Assembly (NCBI RefSeq): GCF_031177825.1
Contig: NZ_JAPSKE010000016.1
Span: 7,774 to 39,773, forward strand
Reading direction: 5' to 3'
DNA: 32,000 nt
Source: Paenibacillus sp.
GTDB lineage: Bacteria > Bacillota > Bacilli > Paenibacillales > YIM-B00363
The notes below the pieces were generated by a model that saw only the letters and a program-made list of their open reading frames with translations, was not told the origin of the DNA and ran no database searches. Made by a program: the position numbers and the translations under genes. Position 1 is the stretch's first letter. Every line of letters starts with the position of its first letter. Shown here one piece after another: positions 3,001 through 28,265 of the stretch.

Positions 3001-3651
3001 CAGTCGGCGCTTCGCGCCACCGGTGCCGAAAGAGGTTTGGTCCTGTTCGGGGAGTCGAGCGACTTCATTATAGAGGCGGAACAAGAGATCAATCGGAATG
3101 GCGCGGTTTCTCCGGCTCAAGCGGGACAGTATTCAACCGCGGTCGTTCAATTCGTCCATCGGACGAAGGAGTCTGTCGTACTGGGGGATGCCTTGCAGAG
3201 CCATTTCGCATACGATGCGTACATGATTCATAGGAGTCCGCGATCGCTCTTGTGCTTGCCGATTCGCGATTCGGATCGGCGAGACGGCGTTCTGTATTTG
3301 GAAAACAATCAGATGTCCGATGCGTTCAAGATGGATCGTCTGGATCTGCTAGAAATGATATTTTCTCGCATGATGTATCTAAAGCTCTGGCAATCGGAAG
3401 ATCGAATGGACACAAATCGGACAGAGGATCGCACGAAGCGGAAGCCCTCGCTTATCGAATCTTTGACGAACCGCGAGATGGAGATCGTTCATCTCATGGC
3501 CGACGGGCTGTCCAATAAACAAATCGCCCTTCGTTTAGCGATTACGGAAGGGACGGTAAAAATTCATGCGAACAATATTTATGGAAAACTACAGGTGAAC
3601 AAACGGGTGCAAGCCATCAAGAAAGCCAGGGAGCTTCAGTTAATACATTAG
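1..3651 (+). CDS. Large STAND/AAA-ATPase, helical-repeat, GAF and LuxR-type HTH transcriptional regulator; 5' end lies outside the window
   Basis: Frame 1 is open from base 1, with no stop before the listed GTG at 28, so the gene is N-terminally truncated. It has an AAA_16-style Walker-B region (VVGLDDLQWADSASLQLL) and a long helical middle part. A GAF-like segment reads ...AERGLVLFGE...LLCLPIRDSDRRDGVLYLENN. The C-terminal GerE/LuxR HTH reads LTNREMEIVHLMADGLSNKQIALRLAITEGTVKIHANNIYGKLQV. Stop is at 3649-3651. Confidence 0.85.
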   Translation, partial: TFVKALQPRVQQDKGYFIFGKSEAGQESTPYAPFIAAFAELVRQVVAGGEEQSARWKARLTKALGRSGSVLAQVVPELTWLIGEQPAVEALSPVEATNRFRTLFGNLIQAFADEEHPLVVGLDDLQWADSASLQLLRELWNRASLKHVLIIGTYRDHEGNEKQGLEELFPDMPDSDVGGIGYMNIHALSYPEVKRYMGDALDADSERIRPLADVLYRQTAGNPLYLKQLLQTCHDRKWLYFDRARMRWDWDMQAIQGLEGFQHVEALIRSRIGTLPEGTRIAMRWAGVLGASFDIDKLSLVTGKDIEQLIHAVSPAVSEGWIMVEERRLTFLHDQVRKVAYDLIPEQEKDRVHLEVGRSLLRSKNCAEVAEEQLFEVVHHLNTGSAYITDRSEAERLARLNLRAGRKAKASAAYGQASELLKMGARFVESDGWSRPDALYFKLVLERTECLYFCGDIRQAEADLRQLLEHADQINDRSRIYSIMIMMYSFHKRMDDAVKIALQAMAEFGFSIPSSSSRPVILAEIARTQLALAKPRMRLTHLSTNQDPEHQALAQIVTVSSSVIFIVDPAMAVVLFAKYVRMSLSQGLGNAFSIALGSYAITMAFGFGKYRTAQRLAETAWQYAEHSDSLLLKGKAQLILALVKQYLHPQEVVPMFEKAGQLSMECGDMVSAGNAIACHMIAADNDLERLEEVCNAYEEKNASTLDEITLRVLHISKRYVELLRQETEDHTLSFNIPGLSEEIMPVEGGLTNEEEGNWYYFYTCKLEVAFVYSRYSETIALAEQSEQFEREMLLSVKQKHCFYHALAIMRLYAEASELGRGKHRKALRKAMQRMRKWAKIATATTLSKYRTVQAEYARLHREYDRAARLYDQAIHEARQAGEYRDEAIAAETAANFYMQRNDRRLSEAYLRKACEAYYRWGATRKSKSLRGRIPEFPELPFEEIEDELKSDPKPNTDAPSSEAPLQDIGLRKGLDYEMFQQIANIQTDHRSELSLAENFLQSALRATGAERGLVLFGESSDFIIEAEQEINRNGAVSPAQAGQYSTAVVQFVHRTKESVVLGDALQSHFAYDAYMIHRSPRSLLCLPIRDSDRRDGVLYLENNQMSDAFKMDRLDLLEMIFSRMMYLKLWQSEDRMDTNRTEDRTKRKPSLIESLTNREMEIVHLMADGLSNKQIALRLAITEGTVKIHANNIYGKLQVNKRVQAIKKARELQLIH

Positions 3652-3866: not shown

Positions 3867-6512
3867 ATGAGCGGAAGAAAGAAATATATTTCGGTTTCAT
3901 GGAAAAGGTTCCTTGTGATGCTATTGTGCGTTATGATGTTTCCCCAGGATCAGCCGGGCGTACATGCCGCACCGGGCGATTCGGATACCATTACAACAAT
4001 AGCGGGGACGGGAAACAACGGCTATTACGGAGACGGCGGAGCAGCCGATGCCGCATGGTTGTACTACCCATCCGGCGTGACTGTGGATGATGCAGGCAAT
4101 CTATACATAGCCGATACAACGAACCATGTGGTTCGAAAGGTGGCGCCGAATGGAACCATCAGCACGGTAGCGGGAACGGGGGCGCAAGGATTTACGGGAG
4201 ACGGAGGTCAGGCTAACCAAGCTGAGCTTAATCACCCTACCGGCGTAGCGGTGGATAGCGGCGGAAATCTGTATATCGCCGATGCCTGGAATTACCGGGT
4301 GAGGAAGGTAGTCCCGAATGGAACGATCAGTACGGTAGCAGGCTCCGGCGATACTCCGGGAGACGGAAGTTCGGCCACTTCCACGTACCTGGCCAATCCT
4401 GAAGGCGTAGCGGTAGACGCTAACGGGAATCTTTATATCGCAGATAGCGAGGGCCACCGAATCTGGAAGGTGGGAGCAGATGGAACGATCCAGGCGATCG
4501 CAGGGACGGGCTCGGCAGGATTTTCGGGCGACGGGGGCCAGGCCGACCAGGCGGAGGTGAGCGCTCCCGTCGGCGTGGCTGTAGACGGCGACGGAATTGT
4601 GTATATCGCCGATACCGGCAACAATCGAATTCGGAAGATTGCGACAGACGGTACGATCAGTACGGTAACCGATCAGGTAGTCGGTGCCAAAGGAGTCGCG
4701 GTGGACGGCAGCGGGAATGTGTTCGTCGCCGATACCTCGAACTATCGAATCAAGAAGGTATCCGCGGGCGGAGCGGTTAGTACGGTGGCGGGTACCGGAG
4801 GCATAGGGTATACCGGAGACGGCGGGGCAGCCGACGCAGCCACATTTAACTCCCCTACAGGGGTAGCGGTTGACCTGGCGGGCAATGTGTATATCGCCGA
4901 TATGTCGAATCATGTGATCCGGATGGTAGGGGCTAACCCTTACCTGGTCGGTTTGACGTTGTCCAGCGGAACTTTGAGTCCGTCTTTCTCGTCCGCAGTA
5001 ACGGCCTACACAGCAACTGTAGGGAATAACGTGAACAGTCTCACGATGACGCCGACGTTATATGGCTCCGGCGGAACTGTAACGGTTGCCGTATACGACG
5101 GGAATGGAACGCTGGCAGGAGGTCCGTTCAGTGTAACGAGCGGTGCGGCATCTTCGGCGCTGCCTTTGAGCACGGGCAACAATACGATCTCCATCGAAGC
5201 GCCGTCGCTAGGCGGGACGACAAAGACGTATACCGTGACCGTAACGAAATCGGCAGCGGGCGTCGATGCCGATTTATTCGATTTATGGTTGAGCGAAGGA
5301 ATATTGAACCCGACTTTTGACCAGGCTATCACGAACTATGCGGTCGATGTAAGCAACGATGTGACCCGTCTCGCGGTTACGCCATGGTTGTCGGACGGTC
5401 AGGCAACCGTTACCGTGAATGGCGTTTCGGTCGCAGCTTACACGGAGAGCGATCCGATCGAATTAAGCGAAGGCAGCAATACGATCGCCGTTGCGGTTAC
5501 CGCGCAGGATGGCATCACGACGAAGACGTACACGATCACGGTCACAAGAGCGGTATCGGTCAGCAACAACGCGGATTTGAGCGGGCTGACGCTCAGCCAT
5601 GGCACGTTGGATCCGATGTTCGCCTCTGGAACGACAAGCTATACGGCAGATGTGGGGAATGCCGTCGCTAGCTTAACCGTGACGCCGACGGTGTCGGAGA
5701 GCCATGCGACCGTTACGGTGAACGGAGCGGTAGTAGCCAGCGGCTCGGCGAGCGAAGCGATCGACCTGAACGTAGGCAGCAATACGATCACAGTCGCGGT
5801 TACCGCGCAGGATGGCATCGCGACGAAAACGTACTCGATCACGATTCATGTCGACCTGGCGAACCCGGCGTTCGAGCCGGATATCGTGGACCCCACCAAT
5901 CAAGACGTGACGCTTACCGTCGTCTTCCCGGCGTATGCGGCGACCAAGCAAGTCAGCACCGATGCGCTCGCGTGGACCCCGTATACGGCGCCGATCGTCG
6001 CGACGGCGAATCAGGCGGTCTATGCGAGGTACGAGCACGAGAACGGCGGATGGAGCAATATAGTGCGCTACGATATCGGGAATATCGATAAGGAAGCGCC
6101 AACGACGGGGAGCGAGGTCGCCGTTGAGGCAACGTCGAAATACGTGACCGTAGCCTTCCAACCGGTGGACGGCGGATCCGGCATCGCCGGTACGTACTAC
6201 AAGGTCGACGGCGGCGCCGAGCAGACGGGGAATAGCGTACAACTGCGTTCGCAAGGAGCGCATACGATCGTCTATTGGAGCGTGGACCATGCGGGCAATC
6301 TCGAGCTTGAACGGCAGCTCTCGCTCGAAGTCCAGCGGCTTCCGATCCCGACGGAGGGCCGATTCCATATCGGACTGCTTCTGTCGTGGATGCGGCTAGC
6401 TACGCCTGAGCAGCTCGATATGAACGACGACGGCGCCTTCGATAAGCAGGATGTGGACGTCATGCTGCGCGCGATCGATCCGGTCGGATGGAGTTCTAAT
6501 CTTACGAACTAG
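3867..6512 (+). CDS. Secreted multidomain protein: signal peptide, six NHL-type beta-propeller repeats, three cadherin-like (CHU_C/Cadherin-like beta-sandwich) modules, an OmpL47/Ig-like segment and one dockerin-like Ca-loop
   Basis: RBS AGAGAGGA lies 7 nt upstream of the ATG. The N-terminus (KKYISVSWKRFLVMLLCVMMF...VHAAPG) looks like a signal peptide. Six repeats follow the pattern GDGG.A..A.L..P.GVAVD..GNLYIAD..N..IRKV..NGTISTVAG. Three ~100-aa modules follow L.GL.LS.G.L.P.F...T.Y...V.......V.PT.......TV.....TKTYT.TV. The segment GSGIAGTYYKVDGG...HTIVYWSVDHAGN is also present. The C-terminus reads DMNDDGAFDKQDVDVMLRAI. Confidence 0.85.
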   Translation: MSGRKKYISVSWKRFLVMLLCVMMFPQDQPGVHAAPGDSDTITTIAGTGNNGYYGDGGAADAAWLYYPSGVTVDDAGNLYIADTTNHVVRKVAPNGTISTVAGTGAQGFTGDGGQANQAELNHPTGVAVDSGGNLYIADAWNYRVRKVVPNGTISTVAGSGDTPGDGSSATSTYLANPEGVAVDANGNLYIADSEGHRIWKVGADGTIQAIAGTGSAGFSGDGGQADQAEVSAPVGVAVDGDGIVYIADTGNNRIRKIATDGTISTVTDQVVGAKGVAVDGSGNVFVADTSNYRIKKVSAGGAVSTVAGTGGIGYTGDGGAADAATFNSPTGVAVDLAGNVYIADMSNHVIRMVGANPYLVGLTLSSGTLSPSFSSAVTAYTATVGNNVNSLTMTPTLYGSGGTVTVAVYDGNGTLAGGPFSVTSGAASSALPLSTGNNTISIEAPSLGGTTKTYTVTVTKSAAGVDADLFDLWLSEGILNPTFDQAITNYAVDVSNDVTRLAVTPWLSDGQATVTVNGVSVAAYTESDPIELSEGSNTIAVAVTAQDGITTKTYTITVTRAVSVSNNADLSGLTLSHGTLDPMFASGTTSYTADVGNAVASLTVTPTVSESHATVTVNGAVVASGSASEAIDLNVGSNTITVAVTAQDGIATKTYSITIHVDLANPAFEPDIVDPTNQDVTLTVVFPAYAATKQVSTDALAWTPYTAPIVATANQAVYARYEHENGGWSNIVRYDIGNIDKEAPTTGSEVAVEATSKYVTVAFQPVDGGSGIAGTYYKVDGGAEQTGNSVQLRSQGAHTIVYWSVDHAGNLELERQLSLEVQRLPIPTEGRFHIGLLLSWMRLATPEQLDMNDDGAFDKQDVDVMLRAIDPVGWSSNLTN
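4944..5850 (+). repeat. Three tandem ~300-nt intragenic modules encoding the cadherin-like domains
   Basis: Modules 2 and 3 keep near-identical DNA stretches offset by 303 nt. Compare GGCAGCAATACGATC...GCGGTTACCGCGCAGGATGGCATC.CGACGAA.ACGTAC.CGATCACG at about 5472-5540 and about 5775-5843. Confidence 0.8.
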
Positions 6513-6837: not shown

Positions 6838-7716
6838 ATGAGAAGGTTGGTCTTATTCAGTCTCGTCGGGTTTTTCGCGCAGCTGGTCGACGGTTCGCTC
6901 GGGATGGGTTTCGGGGCGACGTCGGGGTCGCTGCTGCTGATGTTCGGCGTCGCTCCTGCGGTCGTATCGGCGTCGATTCATCTGGCGGAGGTCGGGACGA
7001 CGGCGGCGTCCGGGGCATCGCATCTCTACTTTAAGAACGTAGACCGGCGGCTCGCCTGGCGGCTGCTTATCCCCGGAGCGATTGCCGCGTTCTTGGGCGC
7101 AGCGTTCCTAAGCTCCTTACCGGGGCATCTGCTGAAGCCGTTCATTGCGGCGTTCTTGACGGCGCTCGGGGTGTATATTTTAATTCGATTCTTGCTTCAA
7201 GCGAGACGGCGTCAAGACGAGCCGGAACAGCAGCCCGCGTATTCGAAAACGTTCGTCATCCCGCTCGCGATCGTCGGCGGTTTCTTCGACGCCGTCGGCG
7301 GCGGCGGATGGGGCCCGATCACGACGCCCGCGCTGCTCGCGAAGAACGGCGCGACGCCGCGCAAGGTCGTCGGCACGGTCGCGACGAGCGAGTTCGCGGT
7401 CGCGGTCTCGGCGACGCTCGGGTTCGTTCTCTTCCTTGGCTGGGAGGCGTTCAATTTGTTCTGGGTGCTTGCGTTCGTCCTCGGCGGCGTGTTCGCGGCG
7501 CCGCTAGCGGCTTACCTCGTGAAGGTCATTCCGACGCAATATATGGGCGTGACCGTTGGCGGCTTCATTATTCTGACGAACCTCAACACGCTGCTCCAGT
7601 CGGCGGATTTCGTGCCGAGCGAGTGGACGGTTCCGATCTATATCGTCGTATTCGTCCTGTGGATCTCCGCGGTCGTCTACCAATGGTCGTCGCGCCGGCG
7701 CGTCGCTAACGCGTAA
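6838..7716 (+). CDS. TauE/SafE (DUF81) family sulfite/anion exporter-type membrane permease
   Basis: A 292-aa polytopic membrane protein. The N-terminus (FFAQLVDGSLGMGFGATSGSLLLMFGVAP...ASIHLAEVGTT) and the internal duplicated half (GGFFDAVGGGGWGPITTPALL) are typical of this family. Confidence 0.8.
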   Translation: MRRLVLFSLVGFFAQLVDGSLGMGFGATSGSLLLMFGVAPAVVSASIHLAEVGTTAASGASHLYFKNVDRRLAWRLLIPGAIAAFLGAAFLSSLPGHLLKPFIAAFLTALGVYILIRFLLQARRRQDEPEQQPAYSKTFVIPLAIVGGFFDAVGGGGWGPITTPALLAKNGATPRKVVGTVATSEFAVAVSATLGFVLFLGWEAFNLFWVLAFVLGGVFAAPLAAYLVKVIPTQYMGVTVGGFIILTNLNTLLQSADFVPSEWTVPIYIVVFVLWISAVVYQWSSRRRVANA

Positions 7717-7734
7717 CTGCATCCTTCCGGCATG

Positions 7735-7760
7735 CGCCGCCCCTGAGGGCGGCGTTTTCC
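7735..7760 (+). terminator. Rho-independent terminator of the TauE-like gene
   Basis: Perfect 8-bp GC stem CGCCGCCC (7735-7742) / GGGCGGCG (7747-7754) with loop CTGA, followed by TTTTCCTTTTCC. Confidence 0.8.
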
Positions 7761-7770
7761 TTTTCCATAG

Positions 7771-7920
7771 ACGCCGATTGTGGGGGACTCGTCGGGAACG
7801 ACCGTCTGCAGGCGGGCGGATACCCGCGCGAAACGGCGGGAAGAAATGAAGGACATCCCGAAGTTAGGCTTGCGGGGCAAGACGTACATCATGATGGGCG
7901 ACGTAGGCAAGAAGGCGTTG
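7771..7920 (+). promoter_or_regulatory. Candidate yybP-ykoY (Mn2+) riboswitch aptamer in the leader of the TerC-family gene
   Basis: The region has no plausible gene and sits between two terminators, upstream of a TerC/YkoY-type gene. The 5' element GGGGGACU-CGUCGGGAA resembles the conserved GGGGAGUAGCGUCGGGAA. The 3' element GACGUACAUCAUGAUG...GUAGGCAAGAAGGCG resembles UUGACAUAC..hairpin..UAGCAAGACC. The flanking CGCC/GGCG could close P1. The match was made by eye and is imperfect in the L1 loop. Confidence 0.5.
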
Positions 7921-7930
7921 TAGCGCAAAG

Positions 7931-7964
7931 AGCGTCGTTCCTTTACGGAACGATGCTTTTTTTG
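7931..7964 (+). terminator. Intrinsic terminator acting as the putative expression platform of the leader
   Basis: Stem AGCGTCGTTCC (7931-7941) / GGAACGATGCT (7947-7957) with one G-U pair and loop TTTAC, followed by a 7-T run. No ORF ends just upstream, which is the behaviour expected of an attenuator. Confidence 0.7.
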
Positions 7965-8097
7965 AAACGCTTCGGCTTGCCGGACGTAAAAAAAACTAGG
8001 TCCCGACGTGCCTGTCCGCGATGAATTAGGTATACTAATGGTTGGGCAAGTTAACGTTAATTACATATAGAATTGTTGACTGCTGACACTTACAGGG

Positions 8098-8892
8098 ATG
8101 AAGAGAGGAGCAATCGAGTTGGAGTCACTTTGGCTGGAGTACGCATGGGCATTACTGATCCTGATCGGGTTGGAGGGGTTGCTGTCCGCCGACAATGCGC
8201 TCGTGTTGGCGGTCATCGCGAAGCATCTTCCGGACGATCAGAAGAAGAAGGCGATCAATTACGGCATTATTATGGCCTTCGTTTTCCGGTTCGCCGCGCT
8301 GTTCGCCATTTCCTTCATCGCGAACGTTTGGCAGGTACAGGCGATCGGCGCAGCCTATCTGCTATATCTTGGGATAAAGCACATCGTTCAAGCGAAGTTC
8401 GGGAAGAAACCCGAGGCTCATCAGAAGGAATTAAAGCAAGAATCCTCGGGGAAAGGGTTTTGGCCTACGGTCGGCAAGATCGCTCTGGCCGATCTCGCGT
8501 TCGCGATCGATTCCATTCTCGCCGCGGTAGCGCTCGCCCTCGGACTTCCGGATTCCCCGCTGGGCGAATTCGGCGGCATGGACGGAGGTCAGTTTATCGT
8601 CGTCGTGCTTGGGGGCATCGCCGGTCTGGTCTTGATCAAGTATGCGGCCACTTGGTTCGTGAAGCTGCTTGGACAACGTCCGGCGCTGGAAACGACGGCT
8701 TACGCGATCGTGGCTTGGGTCGGGGTGAAGCTGGCCGTCATCACGCTCGCCCACGAGGATATCGGCGTGTTGGATCATCATTTCCCGCATAGCACGGGAT
8801 GGACGACAGTGTTCTACATCGTCTTGGTCGCGATCGCCCTCCTCGGTTGGTTCGCGCCTAGCAACAAGCAGGCAAAGGCGACCCAATCGTAA
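8098..8892 (+). CDS. TerC-family integral membrane protein (YkoY/MeeY-like, putative Mn2+ exporter)
   Basis: Carries the signature WALLILIGLEGLLSADNALVLAVI plus a second half-repeat ADLAFAIDSILAAVAL. The listed ATG is at 8098. A TTG at 8119 sits 8 nt after GAGAGGAG (8103-8110) and is at least as good a start. Confidence 0.85.
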   Translation: MKRGAIELESLWLEYAWALLILIGLEGLLSADNALVLAVIAKHLPDDQKKKAINYGIIMAFVFRFAALFAISFIANVWQVQAIGAAYLLYLGIKHIVQAKFGKKPEAHQKELKQESSGKGFWPTVGKIALADLAFAIDSILAAVALALGLPDSPLGEFGGMDGGQFIVVVLGGIAGLVLIKYAATWFVKLLGQRPALETTAYAIVAWVGVKLAVITLAHEDIGVLDHHFPHSTGWTTVFYIVLVAIALLGWFAPSNKQAKATQS

Positions 8893-8913
8893 CGTATCCG
8901 TGAGTGGAAAGGT

Positions 8914-8952
8914 AAGAGCTAAGCCGGTTGAAAACCGCTTAGCTCTTTTTTC
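8914..8952 (+). terminator. Rho-independent terminator of the TerC-family gene
   Basis: An 11-bp stem AAGAGCTAAGC (8914-8924) / GCTTAGCTCTT (8937-8947), followed by TTTTT. Confidence 0.8.
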
Positions 8953-8979
8953 CGTATTTTCGAGGGGGCTCATACGACC

Positions 8980-9927
8980 ATGAACGAAATCGAGCGATAT
9001 CGCGAAGAACTCGCGCGGATCTTCGCCGAAGCGGAGAAGGACATCGCCGCTTTCCCGGACGGGCTGCGGAACCGAGCGCTGCGGCTTCTGGAGCGGAGCG
9101 ATCCGCTGCGGAGCGGCGGACGCGCGAACGCGATCAGCTACTTGCTGCCGTATTGGGCGCAGGAGCGAACGAACGGTCCGCTGGAGCTGTGCCGCGATCT
9201 GGCGATCGGAAATATCCATGCGATGCTCCGGTTTTTCCTGTTGGACGACGCGATGGACGGCGCCGCGGCGAGCCTGGAGCCGTTGCGAGAGTCGCTGGCG
9301 CTCGTTCCGCTCTTGGACGATCGGTTTCTGGAGCGGTACCGGAGACACTTCCCCGAAGATTCGATGCTGTGGAGCAGGTACCGCGTCTACCTTGAGGAAT
9401 GGGCGTCGGCCGTCTATACGGAAGGACGGAATGGTCCGATGGATCCGCGCGACGGCGGCGCGTTGGCGAGGAAGGCGGCGCCCGCGAAGATCGGCGTCTG
9501 CGGCATGCTGCTGCGCGCGGGGCAAGCGGAGCGCCTTCCCGCGACGGAGGAAGCCGTCGAGCTGGCGTTAGCGGCGCTTCAGCTGTCCGACGATCGAGCG
9601 GATTGGCGGGAAGACTTGCGCGTCGCGAACGGCAGCGGCAACGCCTTCCTGACGATCGTTCGAGAGCGTCTGCCCGTTTGGCCGGTCGACGAGTCCGAAG
9701 TCCGGAAAGCGATGTACAACCATGGCGTCTTCGATCGCCTCGCGGACATCGCAGACGGCTACGTCGAACGGTTGGGACGGATGGCCGACGCGCCGGGCGG
9801 GCTCGTCCGATTCGCTCAGGATATCGCCCGAAGCCTGCGGGGAGAGGCCGAAGACGCGGCGGCCTCGAGACGGCGGCTGGCCCTTGAGGGCGGATTCGCT
9901 TACTTCTTGTCGAAAATGGAAGAATAA
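8980..9927 (+). CDS. Class-I isoprenoid-synthase-fold protein (ComQ / polyprenyl- or squalene-phytoene-synthase-like); candidate peptide prenyltransferase
   Basis: A 315-aa, predominantly helical-looking protein with two Asp-rich motifs at the spacing expected for class-I isoprenoid enzymes. The first is LRFFLLDDAMDG (DDxxD, around residue 88). The second is AALQLSDDRADWREDL (DDxxD, resembling the LQL.N..RD..ED motif of SQS/PSY enzymes, around residue 203). It lies immediately upstream of a small peptide gene. The assignment rests on motifs only. Confidence 0.55.
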   Translation: MNEIERYREELARIFAEAEKDIAAFPDGLRNRALRLLERSDPLRSGGRANAISYLLPYWAQERTNGPLELCRDLAIGNIHAMLRFFLLDDAMDGAAASLEPLRESLALVPLLDDRFLERYRRHFPEDSMLWSRYRVYLEEWASAVYTEGRNGPMDPRDGGALARKAAPAKIGVCGMLLRAGQAERLPATEEAVELALAALQLSDDRADWREDLRVANGSGNAFLTIVRERLPVWPVDESEVRKAMYNHGVFDRLADIADGYVERLGRMADAPGGLVRFAQDIARSLRGEAEDAAASRRRLALEGGFAYFLSKMEE

Positions 9928-9928
9928 T

Positions 9929-9957
9929 AGGACAATATTACCAATTCGGTGTATGAT
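9929..9957 (+). promoter_or_regulatory. Candidate sigma-A promoter dedicated to the precursor-peptide gene
   Basis: AGGACA (9929-9934), a 17-nt spacer, then TATGAT (9952-9957). It lies in the AT-rich 70-bp gap between the enzyme stop and the peptide RBS (AAAGGGGAAA). Confidence 0.35.
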
Positions 9958-9997
9958 AGTAGGGCTAGTTTATTTTCCGAAAAGGGGAAACAGCCTT

Positions 9998-10243
9998 ATG
10001 TCTATGGACTCATTGAAAGTGAAAATTATCCAGAAAGCCTGGGAAGACCCGCAATTTAAGACGCAGCTGCTGTCCGATCCGAAGAGCGCGCTGGAAGCTA
10101 CGTTCGGCGTCAAGCTCCCGGAGGGCATCGAGCTCAAAGCGGTGGAGGAGACGCCGACGCAATTTTATTTAGTCCTGCCGCCCAACCCGGCCGATTTGAA
10201 GAGCGACGGCGGGTCGGACGAAGTGCAGTACGTATGGAGCTAG
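9998..10243 (+). CDS. NHLP (nitrile-hydratase-leader-peptide) family RiPP precursor, 81 aa, with Gly-Gly site and 9-residue Trp-containing C-terminal core
   Basis: Translation: MSMDSLKVKIIQKAWEDPQFKTQLLSDPKSALEATFGVKLPEGIELKAVEETPTQFYLVLPPNPADLKSDGG-SDEVQYVWS. The stretch KIIQKAWEDP.FK..LLSDPK.ALE..FGV.LPEGIELK.VEET...FYLVLP is the canonical NHLP leader. The ATG at 9998 follows an RBS, and the longer listed ORF (9722) only overlaps the upstream gene. Codon usage is visibly more AT-rich than the neighbours. Confidence 0.8.
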   Translation: MSMDSLKVKIIQKAWEDPQFKTQLLSDPKSALEATFGVKLPEGIELKAVEETPTQFYLVLPPNPADLKSDGGSDEVQYVWS

Positions 10244-12129
10244 TCCTGCCCGATCCGAGGGAACCGAACGATCGCTTCGGTTCCTTCGCCTTTCTCGCTG
10301 CGAAACTCGAGGGTGCCATTCATCACTTCGATGATTCGGAATGTGACCATGAGCCCGAGTCCGGTCCCCTTGGTTTTCGTAGAAAAATACGGCTCGCCGA
10401 GCTTAGCGATCTGTTCCGTATCCATGCCCGACCCGTTATCCGCGATCCGAATGACGATCTCGGCCCCTTCCGCGTAAGCCTGCACCTCTATCTTCCCCTG
10501 CGCTTGGAACGACTCGATGCTGTTCTTCATCATATTGATCATCGCTTGCTTAAACTTGGAGACGTTGCCTAGCATGAGGAGACGATCGGATGCATGGACG
10601 TGAAGCGTTCCCCCGTGCAGGGTCACCATCGGCACCATAATCGTCTCGATATTGCGCAATTCTTGCTTGACGTCCATCGGCGCGACCGTGTCCTGCTCGG
10701 GCCTCGCGAACGTCAGGAAATCCGAAATGATGACGGACGCCCGATCCAACTCGCTAATGGCCAACGTGTAATGCCCTTTGGTATCTTCGCCGGCCTTGCG
10801 TAATAACAGCTGTAAGAAGCCCCTCGTCACCTGCAGCGGATTGCGGATTTCATGCGCGATCGACGCGGCCAAATCGCTAATGATCCGCATTCGCTCCGTC
10901 TTCTGCAGCTGGCGGCCGTGCAGCTCCAGCTCCCTCGAGTAGGCGAGCAGCGTGGAATAATCGGCGGCGATTCTGCGAACTAATGCGAGGACGAGGCTAA
11001 GGATCAGAAACATTAGGCCGAATTTCCACAAGAAAAACACATGCGGCCGATGAAGGACGGATAGCAAGACCAGATCGGCAATGCCGGACAAAGCGAATCC
11101 GAGAATGCCGCCCGAGAGAATAAGAGAATCCCGGTTCCCCCGGAACGCATTCCGAAACGCGAGCCCGATCGTAACGAGCAGTTGCAGCGCAATGAGCGGA
11201 GCCAGGATGTAAAACGTAAACAGCTTGTAGAAAAAGTAAAACGATTCGCCGACCCAAAGATGCGCGATCAAAACCAGGAAGCAGAATAGGTAGTAGCCGG
11301 CGAGCCATCGGACGGGCTTCTGAAAGAAGGCTGCCGATTTTTCGTTAAGATGGGTCGCGAAATAAAAGAGCGACGGAAACAAGATCAGCATGGATGCGTC
11401 GAATACGAAAAGCAGCAGCCGCCCGAGCTCCGGATAATAATAGAAGGGCAAGGACGAATAAGAAGCGATCAGCGTGCCCGTGGATAGGACGAACAGGCTG
11501 AGCGCCGCCGCATGTTTCCGATGCTTCCACAGCGAAAGTCCGGCAACCGCAAGCATGACGATGCCGAGGAACGAGATCGCGGCTCCGAACAATAGGTTCG
11601 GCATCTCCCTGCGTACGTTGTCCGACGACAAGGCTTCGAAAGCCCCGACGCGAACGGGGCTGGCGATTCCGGCGCGTTCCTTCGATTCGATTCGGATCAG
11701 GATCTCGCTCGCCTCGGAATTCGCCGTAAGCGGAACGAGCGCAATGTTACGTTCGAAATCGTAGCCGCGCGAAGCGCGAAAGATCGCTTCCCCGTTCTCG
11801 TATACGGCGTAGTCGAGTCCGTATAATCGCTGAATATACAGCCCCGGGCTTCGCCATTCGGAAGACGCCGGCACGGTCAGCCGGATCCATGCTCCGACGG
11901 CGCCGTCCGGAATCGTAGTGAGGGGACGGGTCACGGTCGCGGAATGCCAAGAACCGTTCGTAACGGGCGGTTCGCCGCGCGGCTCCGATGCGTCGATCCA
12001 ACGGACGTCCCATTCCGTAACGGTCGTCTCGGAGACGATCGGCCGCTCCGCCTTCGGCAGGCCGAACCAAACGGCAAGTACGGCGCCGCATAACAGGAGT
12101 AAAACGATAGGAATTCGAAACGTTTGCAT
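10240..12129 (-). CDS. Membrane receptor histidine kinase: extracytoplasmic 7TMR-DISMED2-like domain, about 7 TM helices, and a HisKA + HATPase_c core; no cognate response regulator adjacent
   Basis: N-terminal signal/TM, then a ~170-aa extracellular domain, then multiple hydrophobic helices. H-box: ISDLAASIAHEIRNPLQVTRGFLQLL. N-box: INMMKNSIESF. G1: IRIADNGSGM. G2: TKGTGLGLMV. RBS AGAGGTG precedes the ATG at 12129. Confidence 0.85.
   Translation of the reverse strand: MQTFRIPIVLLLLCGAVLAVWFGLPKAERPIVSETTVTEWDVRWIDASEPRGEPPVTNGSWHSATVTRPLTTIPDGAVGAWIRLTVPASSEWRSPGLYIQRLYGLDYAVYENGEAIFRASRGYDFERNIALVPLTANSEASEILIRIESKERAGIASPVRVGAFEALSSDNVRREMPNLLFGAAISFLGIVMLAVAGLSLWKHRKHAAALSLFVLSTGTLIASYSSLPFYYYPELGRLLLFVFDASMLILFPSLFYFATHLNEKSAAFFQKPVRWLAGYYLFCFLVLIAHLWVGESFYFFYKLFTFYILAPLIALQLLVTIGLAFRNAFRGNRDSLILSGGILGFALSGIADLVLLSVLHRPHVFFLWKFGLMFLILSLVLALVRRIAADYSTLLAYSRELELHGRQLQKTERMRIISDLAASIAHEIRNPLQVTRGFLQLLLRKAGEDTKGHYTLAISELDRASVIISDFLTFARPEQDTVAPMDVKQELRNIETIMVPMVTLHGGTLHVHASDRLLMLGNVSKFKQAMINMMKNSIESFQAQGKIEVQAYAEGAEIVIRIADNGSGMDTEQIAKLGEPYFSTKTKGTGLGLMVTFRIIEVMNGTLEFRSEKGEGTEAIVRFPRIGQD
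10260..10296 (+). terminator. Possible + strand terminator for the peptide transcript, embedded in the 3' end of the convergent kinase CDS
   Basis: A 9-bp stem GGAACCGAA (10260-10268) / TTCGGTTCC (10276-10284) with loop CGATCGC, followed by the T-rich TTCGCCTTTCTC. Confidence 0.3.
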
Positions 12130-12153: not shown

Positions 12154-12181
12154 ACTATAAGGATACCTACCTTTTCGACAA
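12154..12181 (-). promoter_or_regulatory. Candidate sigma-A promoter of the kinase gene
   Basis: On the minus strand: TTGTCG (12181-12176), a 16-nt spacer, then TATAGT (12159-12154), about 25 nt upstream of the RBS. Confidence 0.4.
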
Positions 12182-14333: not shown

Positions 14334-14891
14334 TTACCTGCAATAGGTCCGCAGCAGACGTTCTTCCACGCCCAGCCGTTTCGCGATCGCGTAGAGCGAA
14401 CCGAATATCGCCTTCTGCAGCCAGATCGGGATGCCGCTTATAAACGACTCTCCGAGTACGAATAGGACGGCCATCTCGAGCGCGTTGCGGGGGATGCCGC
14501 TCTTCGGGTGCACTCTCCCGTCCCGGGCCAGCCCGTAAGCGATTCGCAGCATCGGTTCGAATCGCCTAGCCGGCTCGATCTTCGTATAAAATACGATCGG
14601 GTCCGGACCCGGATTGAAAAATCGGTGTTTCGTCCCCGGCGGCGCCGAGACGGTCTCCCCGGGACGCAAGCTGCGCAGCAAGCCGTCCACCTCCAGGTGG
14701 AGCTCGCCCTCGACCGCCTCGAAATGTTCCGAATACGTCTGATGATAATGAAGACCGTTGCCGCCCCCCGGGGCCAGTTCCACCTTCACATATTCATAGG
14801 AGCCTCCGGACTCCGCCGCCGTCGTCAGGAAGGTGACCCGGTCTCGAACGAGGGGATTCTCGATAGTCCTCGGCATTGCATGCTGGTTCAA
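14334..14891 (-). CDS. Cupin-domain protein
   Basis: Two cupin motifs: GGGNGLHYHQTYSEHFEAVEG and GETVSAPPGTKHRFFN. A TTG start at 14891 sits 9 nt after AAGGAGG. Confidence 0.75.
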   Translation of the reverse strand: MNQHAMPRTIENPLVRDRVTFLTTAAESGGSYEYVKVELAPGGGNGLHYHQTYSEHFEAVEGELHLEVDGLLRSLRPGETVSAPPGTKHRFFNPGPDPIVFYTKIEPARRFEPMLRIAYGLARDGRVHPKSGIPRNALEMAVLFVLGESFISGIPIWLQKAIFGSLYAIAKRLGVEERLLRTYCR

Positions 14892-15007
14892 GTTACTTCG
14901 CCTCCTTTCCCTATTACCTTAGCAAGGATTCGAACGTTCGCGTACTATACCCAGGTATAATTTGTGAGTATACTTGGGGTAATGATGGAATCGGGCGGGG
15001 GAAGACG

Positions 15008-17041
15008 ATGGGGATCGATGAGAGGGAGGACGCCTTCCTCGTCGGGAGGGAGAGGGAGAGGGCGCTGTTCGAGCGGTTTCTGAACGGAGATGGGGAATGC
15101 AAGCCGGTGTGGAGCCTGTACGGGACCGGGGGCGTCGGCAAGAGCACCTTGCTGGATGCGTTCCGTAGACAGGCGAGCAGGCGCGGGGCAGCGTTCTTCC
15201 TGCTGGACAGCCGGGAGGTCGGCCGGACCGGGGAAGCGTTCTGCGCGGCGTTGCTTGCCAGGATGGACCCTTCCTACGGAAAAGGCGAAACGAACGGCAC
15301 CGCGCTCGACCGCGTCCTGGAACGAGTGCACCGACTGGCGTCGCAAGGCAAGGTCGTGCTCGCGATCGACACCTTCGAGGAGATAAGCTTCATGGAAAGC
15401 TGGCTTCGCGACGACTTCCTGCGCAGGCTGCCCCCGGAAGCGTTAGTCCTGCTGTCGGGGCGGTATCCGCTGCGAGGGCAGTGGCTAACGTCTCCGGCAT
15501 GGCGGGAACGAACGCGCTGGCTCTCGATCGAACATCTGGCGAAAGAAGAGGTGTTGGATTACGCGGGGAAGTGCGGTCTGACCGGGCCTGGGCAGGGGGA
15601 GCGGCTGTGGGAACGGACGCAAGGCCACGGTCTCTCGCTTGCGCTGGCCGTCGCGGCGGAACAAATCGGCGGCGGAGGGCTGTTGGACTCCTCGGGCTGG
15701 TCTTCGGAGCTGGCCGCCCTATGGTTGAAGGAGGTGCCGGACGAGGAGCGACGCGATTTGATCGAGGCCGCTTCGATGCTGCGGTACTTCAATCAGGAGC
15801 TGTTGGAACATATTACGGAGCGCCGCGTCGGCGCGGCCGCCTTCTCCGACATCGCGGCGTTGAGCTTCGTCCGGAAAACCGGGAACGGTTGGCGATTGCA
15901 CGACTTGATGAGGGAATCGACGCGCGCGCAGCTCAGGGAACGGGCGCCGGAAAAGTATCGGAAGCTCGTCGAACGCTGCGTCCTCTATTACGCGACGCTC
16001 ATTCGGGAGTCTTACCGGAAGCGGGACGTCGCCGCCGAAGTGGGGGAACTGTTTTATTATATCGGCGATCAGAACATCCGGGCGTTCTTGAATGCCGCGG
16101 AAGAGCAGGAATATATGTGGGAGCCGCTGTCGACGGCCAACCTGAAGGAGGGGGTTCGGTACTTGCGGCGACGCCGGGACGATGCGAAGCCGGTCATCCG
16201 CAGGGGCGTCGATCCGGCCACGGGAGAGCTGCTGGAGCTAACGCTGAGCAAGGAGGAGATGCTGTATCCGATCGCCGGACTCGATTTGGCGGAATTGGCC
16301 GAGCTGGGGCCGCATACCGTTCAACTGATGAAACGAACCGACGGGGCCGTCTGCGGCTTGTCCGCGATGATTCCGATCGGGGCGCATACGATCGAATATT
16401 TGGAGAGGGATCCGTTCTCGGGTCCGTATTTCCGAAGCTTGACGCCCGCGGAACGCGTGGCGCTCGCCGTTCCGGGCCCGGAACCGGCCGGGTGGTTCAT
16501 CCGGAGCATCGACATTCTGGATTGGCACGATTCCTCAATGCTCCTGGAGGCCGGGTCGCAAATGTACAACTATATGTGCGCCGGCAAATTGTTCGTCACC
16601 GCTCCGCCCCCGTTGGAGATGTTTCGCGAGTCGCACCTGGGTCTCGGCTTTCAGCTGTTGCCGCACGTCACGCACTGCTCGTATGACGGGAAGACGCCTG
16701 CGCCCGCGTTCGTGCTCGACACTCGGGGGGAGAAGCTGGAGGCGTTCTTGAACGCGATGCTGCGCCGCATCGGCGTCGAACTGGAACCGACGCGGAACGA
16801 AGGCGCCGCCCCGGGGGAACCCGCGCGCGCTCCGGAGGAGCAGGAGCGTCGGCTCGTCGCGCTCGGGCTGACGGAGCGGGAACGGGAGGTGGCGCGGCTC
16901 GTCATCGACGGCAGCTCGAACGCCGACATCGCGGCGCGCCTGTTCGTCACCGAAATTACGGTAAAGAAGCACTTAAGCTCGGTGTATGCGAAGACGCAAG
17001 TCAAGAATCGCGGGCAATTGATTAAGGCCATCTTGCAATGA
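15008..17041 (+). CDS. P-loop NTPase (STAND-like) with C-terminal LuxR/GerE HTH transcriptional regulator
   Basis: Walker A: LYGTGGVGKSTLL. Walker B: VVLAIDTFEE. C-terminal HTH: LTEREREVARLVIDGSSNADIAARLFVTEITVKKHLSSVYAKTQV. The ATG at 15008 follows GGGGGAAG. The listed start at 14876 overlaps the divergent cupin gene and is rejected. Confidence 0.8.
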   Translation: MGIDEREDAFLVGRERERALFERFLNGDGECKPVWSLYGTGGVGKSTLLDAFRRQASRRGAAFFLLDSREVGRTGEAFCAALLARMDPSYGKGETNGTALDRVLERVHRLASQGKVVLAIDTFEEISFMESWLRDDFLRRLPPEALVLLSGRYPLRGQWLTSPAWRERTRWLSIEHLAKEEVLDYAGKCGLTGPGQGERLWERTQGHGLSLALAVAAEQIGGGGLLDSSGWSSELAALWLKEVPDEERRDLIEAASMLRYFNQELLEHITERRVGAAAFSDIAALSFVRKTGNGWRLHDLMRESTRAQLRERAPEKYRKLVERCVLYYATLIRESYRKRDVAAEVGELFYYIGDQNIRAFLNAAEEQEYMWEPLSTANLKEGVRYLRRRRDDAKPVIRRGVDPATGELLELTLSKEEMLYPIAGLDLAELAELGPHTVQLMKRTDGAVCGLSAMIPIGAHTIEYLERDPFSGPYFRSLTPAERVALAVPGPEPAGWFIRSIDILDWHDSSMLLEAGSQMYNYMCAGKLFVTAPPPLEMFRESHLGLGFQLLPHVTHCSYDGKTPAPAFVLDTRGEKLEAFLNAMLRRIGVELEPTRNEGAAPGEPARAPEEQERRLVALGLTEREREVARLVIDGSSNADIAARLFVTEITVKKHLSSVYAKTQVKNRGQLIKAILQ

Positions 17042-21262: not shown

Positions 21263-21265
21263 GCG

Positions 21266-21715
21266 ATGGCGAAGTTTCGCGCGGACAATACGATCAACGG
21301 CCGGGAAGCGAGATTGTTCCTCGACAGCGAGGAGATCGGCTACGCCAAGTCGTTCGAGGCGACGATCGAGAAGAACAAGGTGGACATTCCCGTGCTCGGG
21401 AATCGCTGGCTCGGCAAGAAGACGACCAGCCTGAGCGGCACGGGGACGTTGACGCTGTACAAGGTGACTTCGAAATTTTCGAAGATGCTGCTGGAATACG
21501 CGACGACGGGCAAGGACGTCTACTTCACGCTGCAGGGCGTGCTCGACGACCCGGGAGCGGGTCGCGGGACGGAGCGGATTACGTTGATCCACTGCAATAT
21601 CGACTCGGTGAAGATCGGTCAATTCAACGTCGAAGCGGAAGCGCTGGAGGAAGAAATTCCGTTCACGTTCGAAGGCGCCGAAATTCCGGAAGCGCTGAAG
21701 GATACGTTCGAATAA
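21266..21715 (+). CDS. Tail tube protein (XkdM-like)
   Basis: A 149-aa protein directly after the sheath gene. The motifs GREARLFLD..EIGYAKSFEATIEKNKVDIPVLG...TGTLTLYKVTS match the XkdM tube family pattern. Confidence 0.8.
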   Translation: MAKFRADNTINGREARLFLDSEEIGYAKSFEATIEKNKVDIPVLGNRWLGKKTTSLSGTGTLTLYKVTSKFSKMLLEYATTGKDVYFTLQGVLDDPGAGRGTERITLIHCNIDSVKIGQFNVEAEALEEEIPFTFEGAEIPEALKDTFE

Positions 21716-21746
21716 CGATTTCAATCCCTTGAAGGAGGCACGCGCG

Positions 21747-22187: not shown

Positions 22188-22360
22188 TTCGCAGTGGCGA
22201 TTACCATGCGTTAGTATCCCACCGGGTGTGGCAGAAGCACCACCTTCTCCCGCAGGAGCTGTGGAGCATGGACGATTACCACCGCGCATTCATTTACGCT
22301 TCCGAGTTTCTCGAGATGGAGTCCGAACGGAAGGCGGAACGCGCGGCGAGACGCGGGTAG
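22184..22360 (+). CDS. Frameshift extension of the tail assembly chaperone (XkzB-like, the T part of a G/GT-type pair)
   Basis: The -1 frame reads LIRSGDYHALVSHRVWQKHHLLPQELWSMDDYHRAFIYASEFLEMESERKAERAARRG* and ends 42 nt before the tape-measure start. The sequence looks protein-like, not like the Arg/Gly-rich junk seen in the third frame. No independent RBS precedes its internal ATG (22268). Confidence 0.55.
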   Translation: MIRSGDYHALVSHRVWQKHHLLPQELWSMDDYHRAFIYASEFLEMESERKAERAARRG

Positions 22361-22402
22361 CGGGACGCGCCCGCCGCGTCGGAAGGAGGCGAAGCGGCAC
22401 CT

Positions 22403-26866: not shown

Positions 26867-26891
26867 GGGGGAGTCGCGCATCGCGGAATCG

Positions 26892-27338: not shown

Positions 27339-27356
27339 CGCGGGAGGAGGGAGCGC

Positions 27357-28264: not shown

Positions 28265-28265
28265 C

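What the first reader, a model, noticed from the sequence alone, without database searches (positions are those of the whole stretch)
8980..12129. Isoprenoid-synthase-fold enzyme paired with an NHLP-leader peptide ending in a ComX-like Trp core, facing a 7TM receptor kinase: candidate new prenylated RiPP or pheromone system
Seen in sequence:
- An 81-aa peptide has an unmistakable NHLP-type leader (KIIQKAWEDPQFKTQLLSDPKSALEATFGVKLPEGIELKAVEETPTQFYLVLP).
- The leader is followed by a Gly-Gly site and a 9-residue tail, SDEVQYVWS, which has no Cys.
- The only adjacent candidate tailoring gene, 70 bp upstream on the same strand, is a 315-aa protein with two Asp-rich DDxxD motifs (LLDDAMDG, LSDDRADWREDL).
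- The peptide gene has its own AT-rich promoter region.
- Its stop overlaps the stop of a convergent multi-TM sensor kinase.

Established knowledge:
- NHLP leaders normally accompany cyclodehydratase, LanM, radical-SAM or PCAT partners. None of these is present in the window.
- ComQ, a polyprenyl-synthase-like enzyme, prenylates a Trp near the C-terminus of the ComX pheromone, which is sensed by the polytopic kinase ComP.

Inference: this locus may combine an NHLP leader with ComQ-like Trp (or Ser/Tyr) prenylation. As far as I know that pairing has not been described. The kinase is a possible receptor, but it has a HisKA (not ComP-like HisKA_3) core and no adjacent regulator, so that link is weaker.
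Basis: partly seen in the sequence, partly recalled or inferred. Interest (0 to 1): 0.85.

Follow-up and report, generated by a model that had tools for sequence, protein, structure and literature searches.

The report
PalQ-PalX-PalP-type tryptophan-prenylated peptide locus
This Paenibacillus locus is an uncharacterised copy of the PalQ/PalX/PalP system published in 2023, in which an isoprenoid-synthase-like enzyme attaches a lipid to the tryptophan at the end of a small peptide; the one unusual point is an extra serine after that tryptophan.

Summary
The 81-aa peptide passes the NHLP model TIGR03793. The 315-aa protein has two invariant Asp-rich motifs and a confidently predicted polyprenyl-synthase fold. 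A polytopic HisKA kinase converges on the peptide gene, and their stop codons overlap.

The idea of Trp prenylation on an NHLP peptide is right, but it is not new. The pairing was published as PalQ/PalX/PalP of Paenibacillus alvei (Miyata et al., Adv Sci 2023, PMC10853753).
- The window enzyme is 34% identical to PalQ over its full length (E 3e-51) and keeps D89, D93, Q197 and the SARM Asp residues.
- The kinase is 38% identical to PalP over its full length (E 8e-149).
- The gene order is the same.
- Two relatives of the window enzyme are listed by accession in that paper's Table S1.

In 65 related genomes only these three genes travel together, and every complete precursor carries a Trp as its last or second-to-last residue.

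One point stays open. PalQ loses activity when alanine residues are added after the Trp. This peptide ends in ...YVWS, as do all peptides of its clade (Trp plus one small residue). The Gly-Gly cleavage site is not conserved.

Verdict: a new member of a known kind, of modest interest.

The parts
8914..8951 (+). Terminator-like hairpin plus T-run after the upstream TerC gene. It marks the upstream boundary of the module.
   Evidence: Read by eye (AAGAGCTAAGC...GCTTAGCTCTTTTTT). The consensus scan did not report it. The TerC gene is not conserved next to the module.
8980..9927 (+). palQ-like gene: 315-aa trans-isoprenyl-diphosphate-synthase-like peptide tryptophan prenyltransferase.
   Evidence: 34% identity to PalQ (P0306) over the full length, E 3e-51. 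AF2 model with pLDDT 92.2, all-alpha. Foldseek best matches are MoeN5, FPPS, GGPPS and OPPS. No Pfam or NCBIfam hit.
9244..9258 (+). First Asp-rich motif (FARM), DDAMD, residues 89-93.
   Evidence: D89, D90 and D93 are invariant in 36 homologues. They carry the same numbers as PalQ D89/D93.
9580..9615 (+). Q201 plus the second Asp-rich motif (SARM): QLSDDRADWRED, residues 201-212.
   Evidence: Q201, D204, D208, W209 and D212 are invariant. They align with PalQ Q197, D200 and D204 (LQMNDDWADWQT). The paper proposes that Q197 hydrogen-bonds the indole NH.
9929..9957 (+). Promoter-like site (AGGACA-17-TATGAT) in the 70-bp AT-rich gap before the peptide gene.
   Evidence: This is a consensus match only, and the number of such sites in the region is not above chance.
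9998..10243 (+). palX-like gene: 81-aa NHLP-leader precursor. The leader model matches residues 5-68. The tail is ...DGGSDEVQYVWS, with the presumed acceptor Trp80 at nt 10235-10237 and the extra Ser81 at 10238-10240.
   Evidence: TIGR03793 at 75.9 bits, cut-off 50.9. Homologous peptides follow the enzyme gene in essentially all of the 65 loci, and Trp is the last or second-to-last residue in 75 of 75 complete peptides.
10240..12129 (-). palP-like gene: 629-aa polytopic sensor histidine kinase with an N-terminal TM segment, an extracytoplasmic domain of about 150 aa, a multi-TM block, HisKA and HATPase_c. It converges on palX and the stop codons overlap.
   Evidence: Pfam domains. 38% identity to P. 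alvei PalP over 619 aligned residues, E 8e-149. Convergent and adjacent in 63 of 65 loci. Hydropathy scan.
12154..12181 (-). Promoter-like site (TTGTCG-16-TATAGT) upstream of the kinase gene.
   Evidence: a consensus match only.

Best explanation
The locus is an orthologue of the PalQ-PalX-PalP module of Paenibacillus alvei.

**Proposed mechanism**
1. The 81-aa precursor is made with an NHLP leader, which docks on the (probably homodimeric) 315-aa enzyme.
2. The enzyme binds a prenyl diphosphate through Mg2+ or Mn2+ at its Asp-rich motifs. The donor is most likely C10 or C15; PalQ accepts C5 to C15.
3. The enzyme transfers the prenyl group in the forward direction to indole C3 of Trp80. The backbone nitrogen then closes onto C2 to give a tricyclic pyrroloindoline.
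4. An unlinked protease removes the leader, and the short lipopeptide leaves the cell by an unlinked route.
5. The convergent polytopic kinase is the likely sensor of the mature lipopeptide. It would signal through an unlinked response regulator or phosphorelay, giving a ComQXPA-like pheromone circuit built from non-orthologous parts.

**Shown here**
- Homology of all three genes to PalQ, PalX and PalP.
- The fold of the enzyme and conservation of its catalytic residues.
- Exclusive co-occurrence of the three genes.
- An invariant Trp at the end of the peptide.

**Shown in the literature for P. alvei only**
- Prenyl transfer, its chemistry, metal dependence and Trp specificity.

**Inferred**
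- That this enzyme does the same on a Trp followed by one more residue.
- The prenyl chain length.
- Leader removal and export.
- The signalling role of the kinase.

My estimates: membership of the module about 0.9, Trp prenylation at this locus about 0.8, kinase as sensor of the peptide about 0.45.
For: **Enzyme**
- 34% identical to PalQ over its full length, E 3e-51, with PalQ's D89, D93, Q197, D200 and D204 all conserved.
- P0306 is identified as PalQ. It starts MHWYEP, ends SVTK and contains TALICLQMNDDWADWQT, all of which I decoded from the paper's cloning and mutagenesis primers. Its residue numbering matches the paper's. The adjacent gene in its locus encodes exactly the published PalX.
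- Relatives P0042 (A0A3T1DEA5, 48% identical to the window enzyme) and P0064 (A0A2N5NCE9, 44%) are listed by accession in the paper's Table S1 as members of the PalQ cluster.
- The AF2 model (pLDDT 92.2, pTM 0.90) matches trans-prenyltransferases in the PDB, with TM-scores up to 0.68.

**Peptide**
- Passes TIGR03793.
- All 75 complete homologous peptides from 63 loci have Trp as the last residue or the one before it, and none has Cys in the last 20 residues.

**Kinase and module**
- 38% identical to PalP over its full length, E 8e-149.
- Same gene order and orientation as the P. alvei locus.
- Only the enzyme and the kinase recur within 6 kb either side across the 65 loci.

**Biochemistry of PalQ** (PMC10853753)
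- Mass shifts of +68, +136 and +204 Da.
- C3 forward prenylation with pyrroloindoline formation, shown by NMR.
- Dependence on Mg or Mn.
- Trp-only specificity.
- The leader enhances the reaction.
Against: - PalQ lost activity when alanine residues were added after the C-terminal Trp, and this peptide ends in Trp-Ser. Direct transfer of PalQ's specificity to this enzyme is therefore not safe.
- Identity to PalQ is only 34%, and nothing in this clade has been tested.
- The PalQ D200A/D204A double mutant kept activity, so conservation of the SARM is weak evidence for catalysis.
- No protease, exporter or response regulator is linked in any locus.
- No experiment connects PalP or any homologue to the peptide. 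The papers I read give no function for PalP.
- The 7TMR-DISM_7TM match is below Pfam's threshold.
Confidence: 0.8

Rival explanations
1. Trim-first variant. The enzyme keeps PalQ's strict need for a terminal Trp. The extra residue (Ser81) is removed by a carboxypeptidase before prenylation, or the ...WS form is an inert pro-form until it is trimmed.
For: - Adding alanine residues after the Trp abolishes PalQ activity.
- The +1 residue is always small: S, N, G, T or A in 33 of 33 such peptides. That could be a trimming signal.
- Only two enzyme alignment columns separate the Trp+1 clade from the terminal-Trp loci, so there is little sign of a remodelled active site.
Against: - No peptidase is linked in any of the 65 loci.
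- The +1 residue is stably kept in two separate clades, 13 and 7 loci. That is odd for a residue that is only thrown away.
- ComQ, with the same fold, prenylates internal Trp residues.
- PalQ shows low activity on an internal Trp flanked by Gly.
Confidence: 0.2
2. The product is an antimicrobial lipopeptide rather than a pheromone. In that case the kinase either autoregulates production, as in lantibiotic systems, or senses something unrelated.
For: - Prenylation of membrane-active peptides by PalQ raises their antimicrobial activity (review PMC13290415).
- NHLP leaders usually belong to bioactive natural products (and general knowledge).
- No pheromone function has been shown for PalX.
Against: - No immunity or export genes are linked.
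- The cores are very short and mostly acidic or neutral (for example SDEVQYVWS), unlike cationic antimicrobial peptides.
- The only conserved partner besides the enzyme is a sensor kinase. That fits a signal-receptor pair as in ComQXPA.
Confidence: 0.2
3. The 315-aa protein is an ordinary terpene or polyprenyl synthase acting on small isoprenoid substrates, as some database names say. Its position next to the peptide gene would then be incidental or regulatory.
For: - Source names include 'polyprenyl synthetase', 'class 1 isoprenoid biosynthesis enzyme' and 'terpene synthase'.
- The best structural matches are chain-elongating prenyl synthases.
Against: - No match to any Pfam or NCBIfam polyprenyl- or terpene-synthase model at E up to 1.
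- The peptide gene follows the enzyme gene in essentially every locus, and its Trp is invariant.
- The characterised homologue PalQ is a peptide prenyltransferase.
Confidence: 0.03

Closest known systems
PalQ / PalX / PalP of Paenibacillus alvei (Miyata, Ito and Fujinami, Adv Sci 2023; PMC10853753)
   Same: - All three genes are full-length homologues: enzyme 34% identical, kinase 38% identical, and an NHLP precursor of 80 vs 81 aa.
- The order and orientation are the same: Q then X on one strand, separated by about 70 bp, with P convergent.
- FARM D89/D93, the Gln before the SARM, and the SARM Asp residues are conserved.
- The acceptor Trp sits at the end of the peptide.

   Different: - The precursor ends in Trp-Ser, not Trp, and PalQ did not accept peptides extended with alanine after the Trp.
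- The tail (DEVQYVWS) is acidic, whereas the PalX core (DNVRRFFW) is basic.
- The peptide and kinase genes overlap here by 4 nt, while P. alvei has an 82-bp gap.
- Enzyme position 40, next to the residue equivalent to PalQ K39, is Ser here and Phe in PalQ.
ComQ-ComX-ComP-ComA quorum-sensing system of Bacillus subtilis
   Same: - A trans-IDS-like enzyme prenylates indole C3 of a Trp near the C-terminus of a small ribosomal peptide and gives a pyrroloindoline.
- A polytopic histidine kinase is encoded alongside (and general knowledge).
- Like ComX, this peptide has residue(s) after the Trp.
   Different: - The enzyme has no detectable sequence match to polyprenyl-synthase profiles. By the authors' network analysis, PalQ-type enzymes form a cluster separate from ComQ.
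- ComQ lacks a true SARM, whereas this enzyme has one.
- The precursor has an NHLP leader.
- The kinase has a HisKA rather than a HisKA_3 core, is convergent rather than co-linear, and has no adjacent ComA-like regulator.
Other trans-IDS-like Trp prenyltransferases: Ord1 (acts on free Trp; crystal structure) and the P domain of ChrPC
   Same: All-alpha isoprenoid-synthase fold. The SARM region is repurposed for indole recognition, with a conserved Gln (Q216 in Ord1, Q197 in PalQ, Q201 here).
   Different: Ord1 acts on the free amino acid. ChrPC is a fusion with a cyclase domain and sits in a separate similarity cluster. I made no direct comparison with either protein.
Classical NHLP-leader RiPPs (TOMMs, proteusins, class II lanthipeptides exported by PCAT)
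   Same: The leader passes TIGR03793.
   Different: No YcaO, LanM, radical-SAM or PCAT gene is in the window or conserved near homologues. The core has no Cys and few Ser/Thr, and the Gly-Gly is not conserved.

Membership tests
PalQ-type peptide Trp prenyltransferase module (PalQ/PalX/PalP) | Full-length sequence homology of the enzyme to PalQ | tested here: met
   BLASTP against P0306 (PalQ) gives 34% identity over 315 aligned columns, E 3e-51. Relatives P0042 and P0064 carry the accessions listed in the paper's Table S1.
PalQ-type peptide Trp prenyltransferase module (PalQ/PalX/PalP) | FARM (D89, D93), the Gln before the SARM (Q197) and the SARM Asp residues (D200, D204) | tested here: met
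   The window has D89, D93, Q201, D204 and D208, aligned with the PalQ residues and invariant in 36 homologues.
PalQ-type peptide Trp prenyltransferase module (PalQ/PalX/PalP) | All-alpha trans-isoprenyl-diphosphate-synthase fold | tested here: met
   AF2 model with pLDDT 92.2 and pTM 0.90. Foldseek matches MoeN5, FPPS, GGPPS and OPPS at probability 1.00 and TM-scores of 0.5-0.68.
PalQ-type peptide Trp prenyltransferase module (PalQ/PalX/PalP) | NHLP-leader precursor gene immediately downstream on the same strand | tested here: met
   TIGR03793 at 75.9 bits vs a cut-off of 50.9. The gap is 70 bp here and 68 bp in P. alvei. Present in essentially all of the 65 loci.
PalQ-type peptide Trp prenyltransferase module (PalQ/PalX/PalP) | Acceptor Trp is the very last residue of the precursor. 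This is a property of the one characterised enzyme-substrate pair; PalQ rejects peptides extended with alanine after the Trp. | tested here: not met
   The peptide ends ...YVWS. In the family, 41 of 75 peptides end in W and 33 of 75 in W plus one small residue. The paper's own Fig. S5 shows cluster members ending in WGE and W.D. A terminal Trp therefore does not delimit the family as its authors drew it, but it is where this locus departs from the tested example.
PalQ-type peptide Trp prenyltransferase module (PalQ/PalX/PalP) | Adjacent convergent sensor histidine kinase homologous to PalP | tested here: met
   38% identity over 619 aligned residues, including the sensor part, E 8e-149. Same orientation. 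Present in 63 of 65 loci.
PalQ-type peptide Trp prenyltransferase module (PalQ/PalX/PalP) | Mg/Mn-dependent transfer of C5-C15 prenyl groups to indole C3 of the peptide's Trp | not testable with these tools
   This needs enzyme assays. It has been shown only for P. alvei PalQ.
ComQXPA quorum-sensing system | Enzyme belongs to the ComQ / polyprenyl_synt sequence family | tested here: not met
   No Pfam or NCBIfam match at E up to 1. The literature places PalQ-type enzymes in a similarity-network cluster separate from ComQ.
ComQXPA quorum-sensing system | ComP-type kinase (HisKA_3) with an adjacent ComA-type regulator, all co-linear with comQ and comX | tested here: not met
   The kinase core is HisKA (PF00512). 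It is convergent. No response regulator is in the window or conserved nearby.
Classical NHLP RiPP pathways (TOMM, proteusin, lanthipeptide with PCAT) | Cyclodehydratase, LanM, radical-SAM or PCAT partner, and a Gly-Gly leader cleavage site | tested here: not met
   None of these domains is found in the ORFs of the window. No such family recurs near homologues. A Gly-Gly occurs in only 16 of 75 tails.

The most novel reading that the evidence does not exclude
The window belongs to a clade of PalQ-type enzymes whose natural substrates all carry one small residue after the acceptor Trp. In this clade (13 loci) the tails read Y-x-W-[S/G/N/T/A]; a second clade of 7 loci has the same trait.

If these enzymes prenylate the second-to-last Trp directly, they are natural specificity variants. 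They would relax the strict 'terminal Trp only' rule reported for PalQ and bridge PalQ (terminal Trp) and ComQ (internal Trp).

The exclusive three-gene co-occurrence would also make this a second family of prenyl-peptide pheromone circuits in Paenibacillaceae, not orthologous to ComQXPA and with an orphan kinase.
Probability: 0.4. Interest if true: 0.5.

Novelty: new member of a known kind. Interest (0 to 1): 0.27.

Why it matters
The main value of this result is negative. A finding scored 0.85 as a possible new RiPP class is in fact a described system, so it should not be pursued as a discovery of a new enzyme-leader pairing.

Two things remain of value.
- **Specificity.** PalQ is being developed as a tool for lipidating peptides and proteins, and its strict need for a terminal Trp limits that use. 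This locus and its clade offer natural enzymes paired with Trp+1 substrates. They are obvious candidates for broader positional specificity.
- **Biology.** The biological role of the module is still unknown. The survey here gives the first systematic genomic argument that peptide and kinase work together: 65 loci, only Q, X and P co-occurring, full-length conservation of the kinase including its sensor part, and frequent tail-to-tail overlap of the X and P genes.

Tried and rejected
- **Family scans of the enzyme.** Pfam and NCBIfam gave nothing. A profile search of PDB sequences gave only chance-level matches with E at or above 0.13. The fold had to come from a predicted structure.
- **Look-up of the window protein.** An exact look-up of P0001 in the contig index was not on record.
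- **Finding PalQ.** The first two word-indexed protein searches did not reach P. alvei PalQ. I reached it through the exhaustive profile search and a third search seeded with P0118.
- **Basis of the Trp+1 trait.** A search for enzyme columns that explain it found only positions 40 and 153. This is too little to claim a mechanism.
- **Conserved accessory genes.** I looked for a conserved protease, exporter or response regulator near homologues and found none.
- **Rfam.** Scans of the window, and of 7650-10050 at E up to 1, found nothing. In particular there is no riboswitch before the TerC gene and no structured RNA in the Q-X gap.
- **Readings considered and rejected.**
  - Ser or Tyr prenylation: PalQ accepted only Trp at the acceptor position, and only Trp is invariant.
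  - Gly-Gly/PCAT processing: the site is not conserved and there is no PCAT.
  - True ComQXPA membership: the defining features are not met.

Full report
**What is in the sequence**

- ORF 8980-9927 (+) encodes 315 aa. DDAMD lies at residues 89-93 and QLSDDRADWRED at 201-212.
- After a 70-bp AT-rich gap, ORF 9998-10243 (+) encodes the 81-aa peptide MSMDSLKVKIIQKAWEDPQFKTQLLSDPKSALEATFGVKLPEGIELKAVEETPTQFYLVLPPNPADLKSDGGSDEVQYVWS.
  - The gap holds a promoter-like AGGACA-17-TATGAT and a purine-rich ribosome-binding site.
  - The peptide passes NCBIfam TIGR03793 (NHLP leader, 75.9 bits, cut-off 50.9) and Pfam NHase_alpha.
- ORF 10240-12129 (-) encodes a 629-aa kinase.
  - HisKA and HATPase_c are above threshold; the 7TMR-DISM_7TM match is below it.
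  - A crude hydropathy scan gives one N-terminal TM segment, about 150 extracytoplasmic residues, and then six or seven TM segments.
  - Its stop codon overlaps the peptide's stop within CTAG at 10240-10243.
- The rest of the window has no YcaO, LanM, radical-SAM, PCAT or response-regulator gene.

**The enzyme**

It matches no Pfam or NCBIfam model and no PDB sequence. Sequence annotation alone would therefore leave it 'hypothetical'.

An alignment of 36 homologues shows that both Asp-rich motifs are invariant: D89, D90, D93, Q201, D204, D208, W209 and D212.

AlphaFold2 run on that alignment gives a confident all-helical model (pLDDT 92.2, pTM 0.90). The closest solved structures are trans-prenyltransferases: MoeN5 and farnesyl, geranylgeranyl and octaprenyl diphosphate synthases, at probability 1.00 and TM-scores up to 0.68.

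**Genomic context**

A scan of one genome per species found 65 loci encoding relatives. All come from Paenibacillus, Cohnella, Thermobacillus, or metagenome-assembled genomes labelled Paenibacillaceae, Bacillales or Bacillota.
- In essentially every locus an NHLP peptide gene follows the enzyme gene directly. Some loci carry two to four tandem copies.
- In 63 of the 65 loci a homologue of the window kinase follows, convergent. The other two loci are cut short by contig ends.
- None of the window's other neighbours is conserved.
- An all-against-all clustering of ORFs within 6 kb either side found only the enzyme and the kinase as recurrent families. Their shadow ORFs also recur. The next real family is in 12 loci at most.

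The unit is therefore exactly three genes, with no linked protease, exporter or response regulator.

**The peptides**

All 75 complete peptides have Trp as the last residue (41) or the one before it: 33 end in Trp plus S, N, G, T or A, and one ends in WW. None has Cys in the last 20 residues. Only 16 have a Gly-Gly in the tail. The invariant Trp, not the Gly-Gly, is the feature under selection.

**It is already known**

A full-text search for ComQ together with NHLP returned one paper: Miyata, Ito and Fujinami, Adv Sci 2023 (PMC10853753).

The paper describes a three-gene cluster in Paenibacillus alvei: the histidine kinase PalP, the NHLP-type precursor PalX and the prenyltransferase PalQ. Its findings:
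- It transfers C5, C10 and C15 prenyl groups (+68, +136, +204 Da) in the forward direction to indole C3 of PalX's C-terminal Trp, forming a pyrroloindoline.
- It needs Mg or Mn.
- It accepted only Trp among the electron-rich residues tested at the acceptor position.
- The NHLP leader enhances the reaction.
- It is inactive when alanine residues are added after the Trp.

A 2026 review repeats these points and groups PalQ with ComQ, ChrPC and Ord1 as 'trans-IDS-like' prenyltransferases (PMC13290415).

**Membership was tested directly**

- Table S1 of the paper lists A0A3T1DEA5 (Cohnella abietis) and A0A2N5NCE9 (P. pasadenensis) as members of the PalQ cluster. These are my hits P0042 (48% identical to the window enzyme) and P0064 (44%); the accessions were confirmed.
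- I recovered PalQ itself as P0306.
  - It starts MHWYEP, ends SVTK and contains TALICLQMNDDWADWQT, as I decoded from the paper's cloning and mutagenesis primers.
  - Its K39, D89, D93, Q197, D200 and D204 fall at the paper's residue numbers.
- The window enzyme aligns with P0306 end to end at 34% identity, E 3e-51, with all those catalytic positions kept.
- The P. alvei locus (L067) has the same layout:
  - PalQ is 312 aa on the + strand.
  - PalX follows 68 bp later and is 80 aa; its translation is exactly the published sequence.
  - PalP is 643 aa and convergent.
- The window kinase is 38% identical to PalP over 619 aligned residues, E 8e-149.

By contrast, the ComQXPA features are not met. 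The enzyme matches no polyprenyl_synt or ComQ profile. The kinase has HisKA, not HisKA_3, and is convergent. There is no ComA.

**How it most likely works**

By homology:
1. The leader docks the precursor on the enzyme.
2. A prenyl diphosphate bound through Mg2+ at the Asp-rich motifs is transferred to C3 of Trp80, with ring closure.
3. Unlinked functions remove the leader and export the short lipopeptide.
4. The co-conserved polytopic kinase is the likely sensor and signals to an unlinked partner.

Only the homology, the fold, the conserved residues and the co-occurrence are shown here. The chemistry is shown for P. alvei only. Chain length, processing, export and signalling are inferred. The papers I read report no function for PalP.

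**The one real departure**

PalQ requires the Trp to be terminal, but this precursor ends ...YVWS.

This is not an annotation accident. On a similarity tree of the enzymes the Trp+1 trait is clade-specific and stable.
- All 13 loci of the window's clade have tails of the form Y-x-W-[S/G/N/T/A].
- A second clade of 7 Paenibacillus loci, several with multiple precursor copies, also has Trp+1 tails.
- Nearly all other loci end in Trp.

Only two enzyme columns separate the window's clade from the terminal-Trp loci. One is position 40: Ser in the window's clade, Cys in the second clade, and Phe, Ala, Cys or Leu elsewhere. It lies next to the residue equivalent to PalQ K39, which contacts the peptide's carboxylate in the authors' simulations. 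That is a lead, not an explanation.

Either these enzymes accept a second-to-last Trp, or the last residue is trimmed first. ComQ handles internal Trp residues, and PalQ shows trace activity on a Gly-flanked internal Trp. The paper's own Fig. S5 shows two homologous peptides ending in WGE and W.D, but they were not tested.

**Verdict**

- The mechanistic reading is essentially right.
- The novelty claim is wrong.
- The Gly-Gly reading should be dropped: the site is not conserved.

The locus is a new, uncharacterised member of a known kind. It carries a modestly interesting natural substrate variant that bears on the specificity of an enzyme now used as a lipidation tool.

Noticed in passing
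window 10240-10243; loci L001-L065: The peptide and kinase ORFs overlap tail to tail in 44 of 64 loci, by 4-35 nt (most often 24 nt, 18 loci). In many genomes the codons of the core peptide are therefore antisense to the last codons of the kinase. P. alvei PalX and PalP do not overlap (82-bp gap). This could couple the evolution or the expression of the two genes.
   Followed up: partly
L018, L019, L024, L027, L035, L036 (about 6900-8400 in each): One Paenibacillus clade carries two to four tandem precursor genes per locus, with different tails (for example QMASWS, QMATWT, VQYSWN), between one enzyme gene and one kinase gene.
   Followed up: partly
L041 1276-3444 and 6994-7263: Cohnella xylanilytica has a second precursor (ending WN) and the best kinase match about 5 kb upstream of the enzyme gene, besides a precursor (ending W) next to the enzyme. 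This is a possible duplicated or rearranged module.
   Followed up: no
L048 6910-8150; L065; L020 6923-7087: These copies look decayed. In L048 the precursor ORF reads through to 137 aa and the kinase match is truncated. L065 has a weak kinase match. The first precursor of L020 lacks its N-terminus.
   Followed up: no
window 19907-30616: A phage-tail-like module: tail sheath (19907-21262), Baseplate_J (28266-29288) and a baseplate wedge/tail-fibre network component (30101-30616). Several large ORFs between them have no Pfam match. This is probably a prophage or a tailocin.
   Followed up: no
window 28-3651 and 14876-17041: Two large STAND-type regulators (AAA_16 ATPase with a GerE/LuxR helix-turn-helix; the first also has a GAF domain) flank the region. 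Neither is conserved next to the module in other genomes.
   Followed up: partly
window 3867-6512: An 881-aa protein with NHL repeats and three cadherin-like beta-sandwich domains, apparently secreted (hydrophobic N-terminus). It appears unrelated to the module.
   Followed up: no
window 7717-8097: A 380-bp gap lies before the TerC-family gene (8098-8892). From general knowledge such genes often follow a yybP-ykoY manganese riboswitch, but no Rfam family matched here even at E up to 1.
   Followed up: yes
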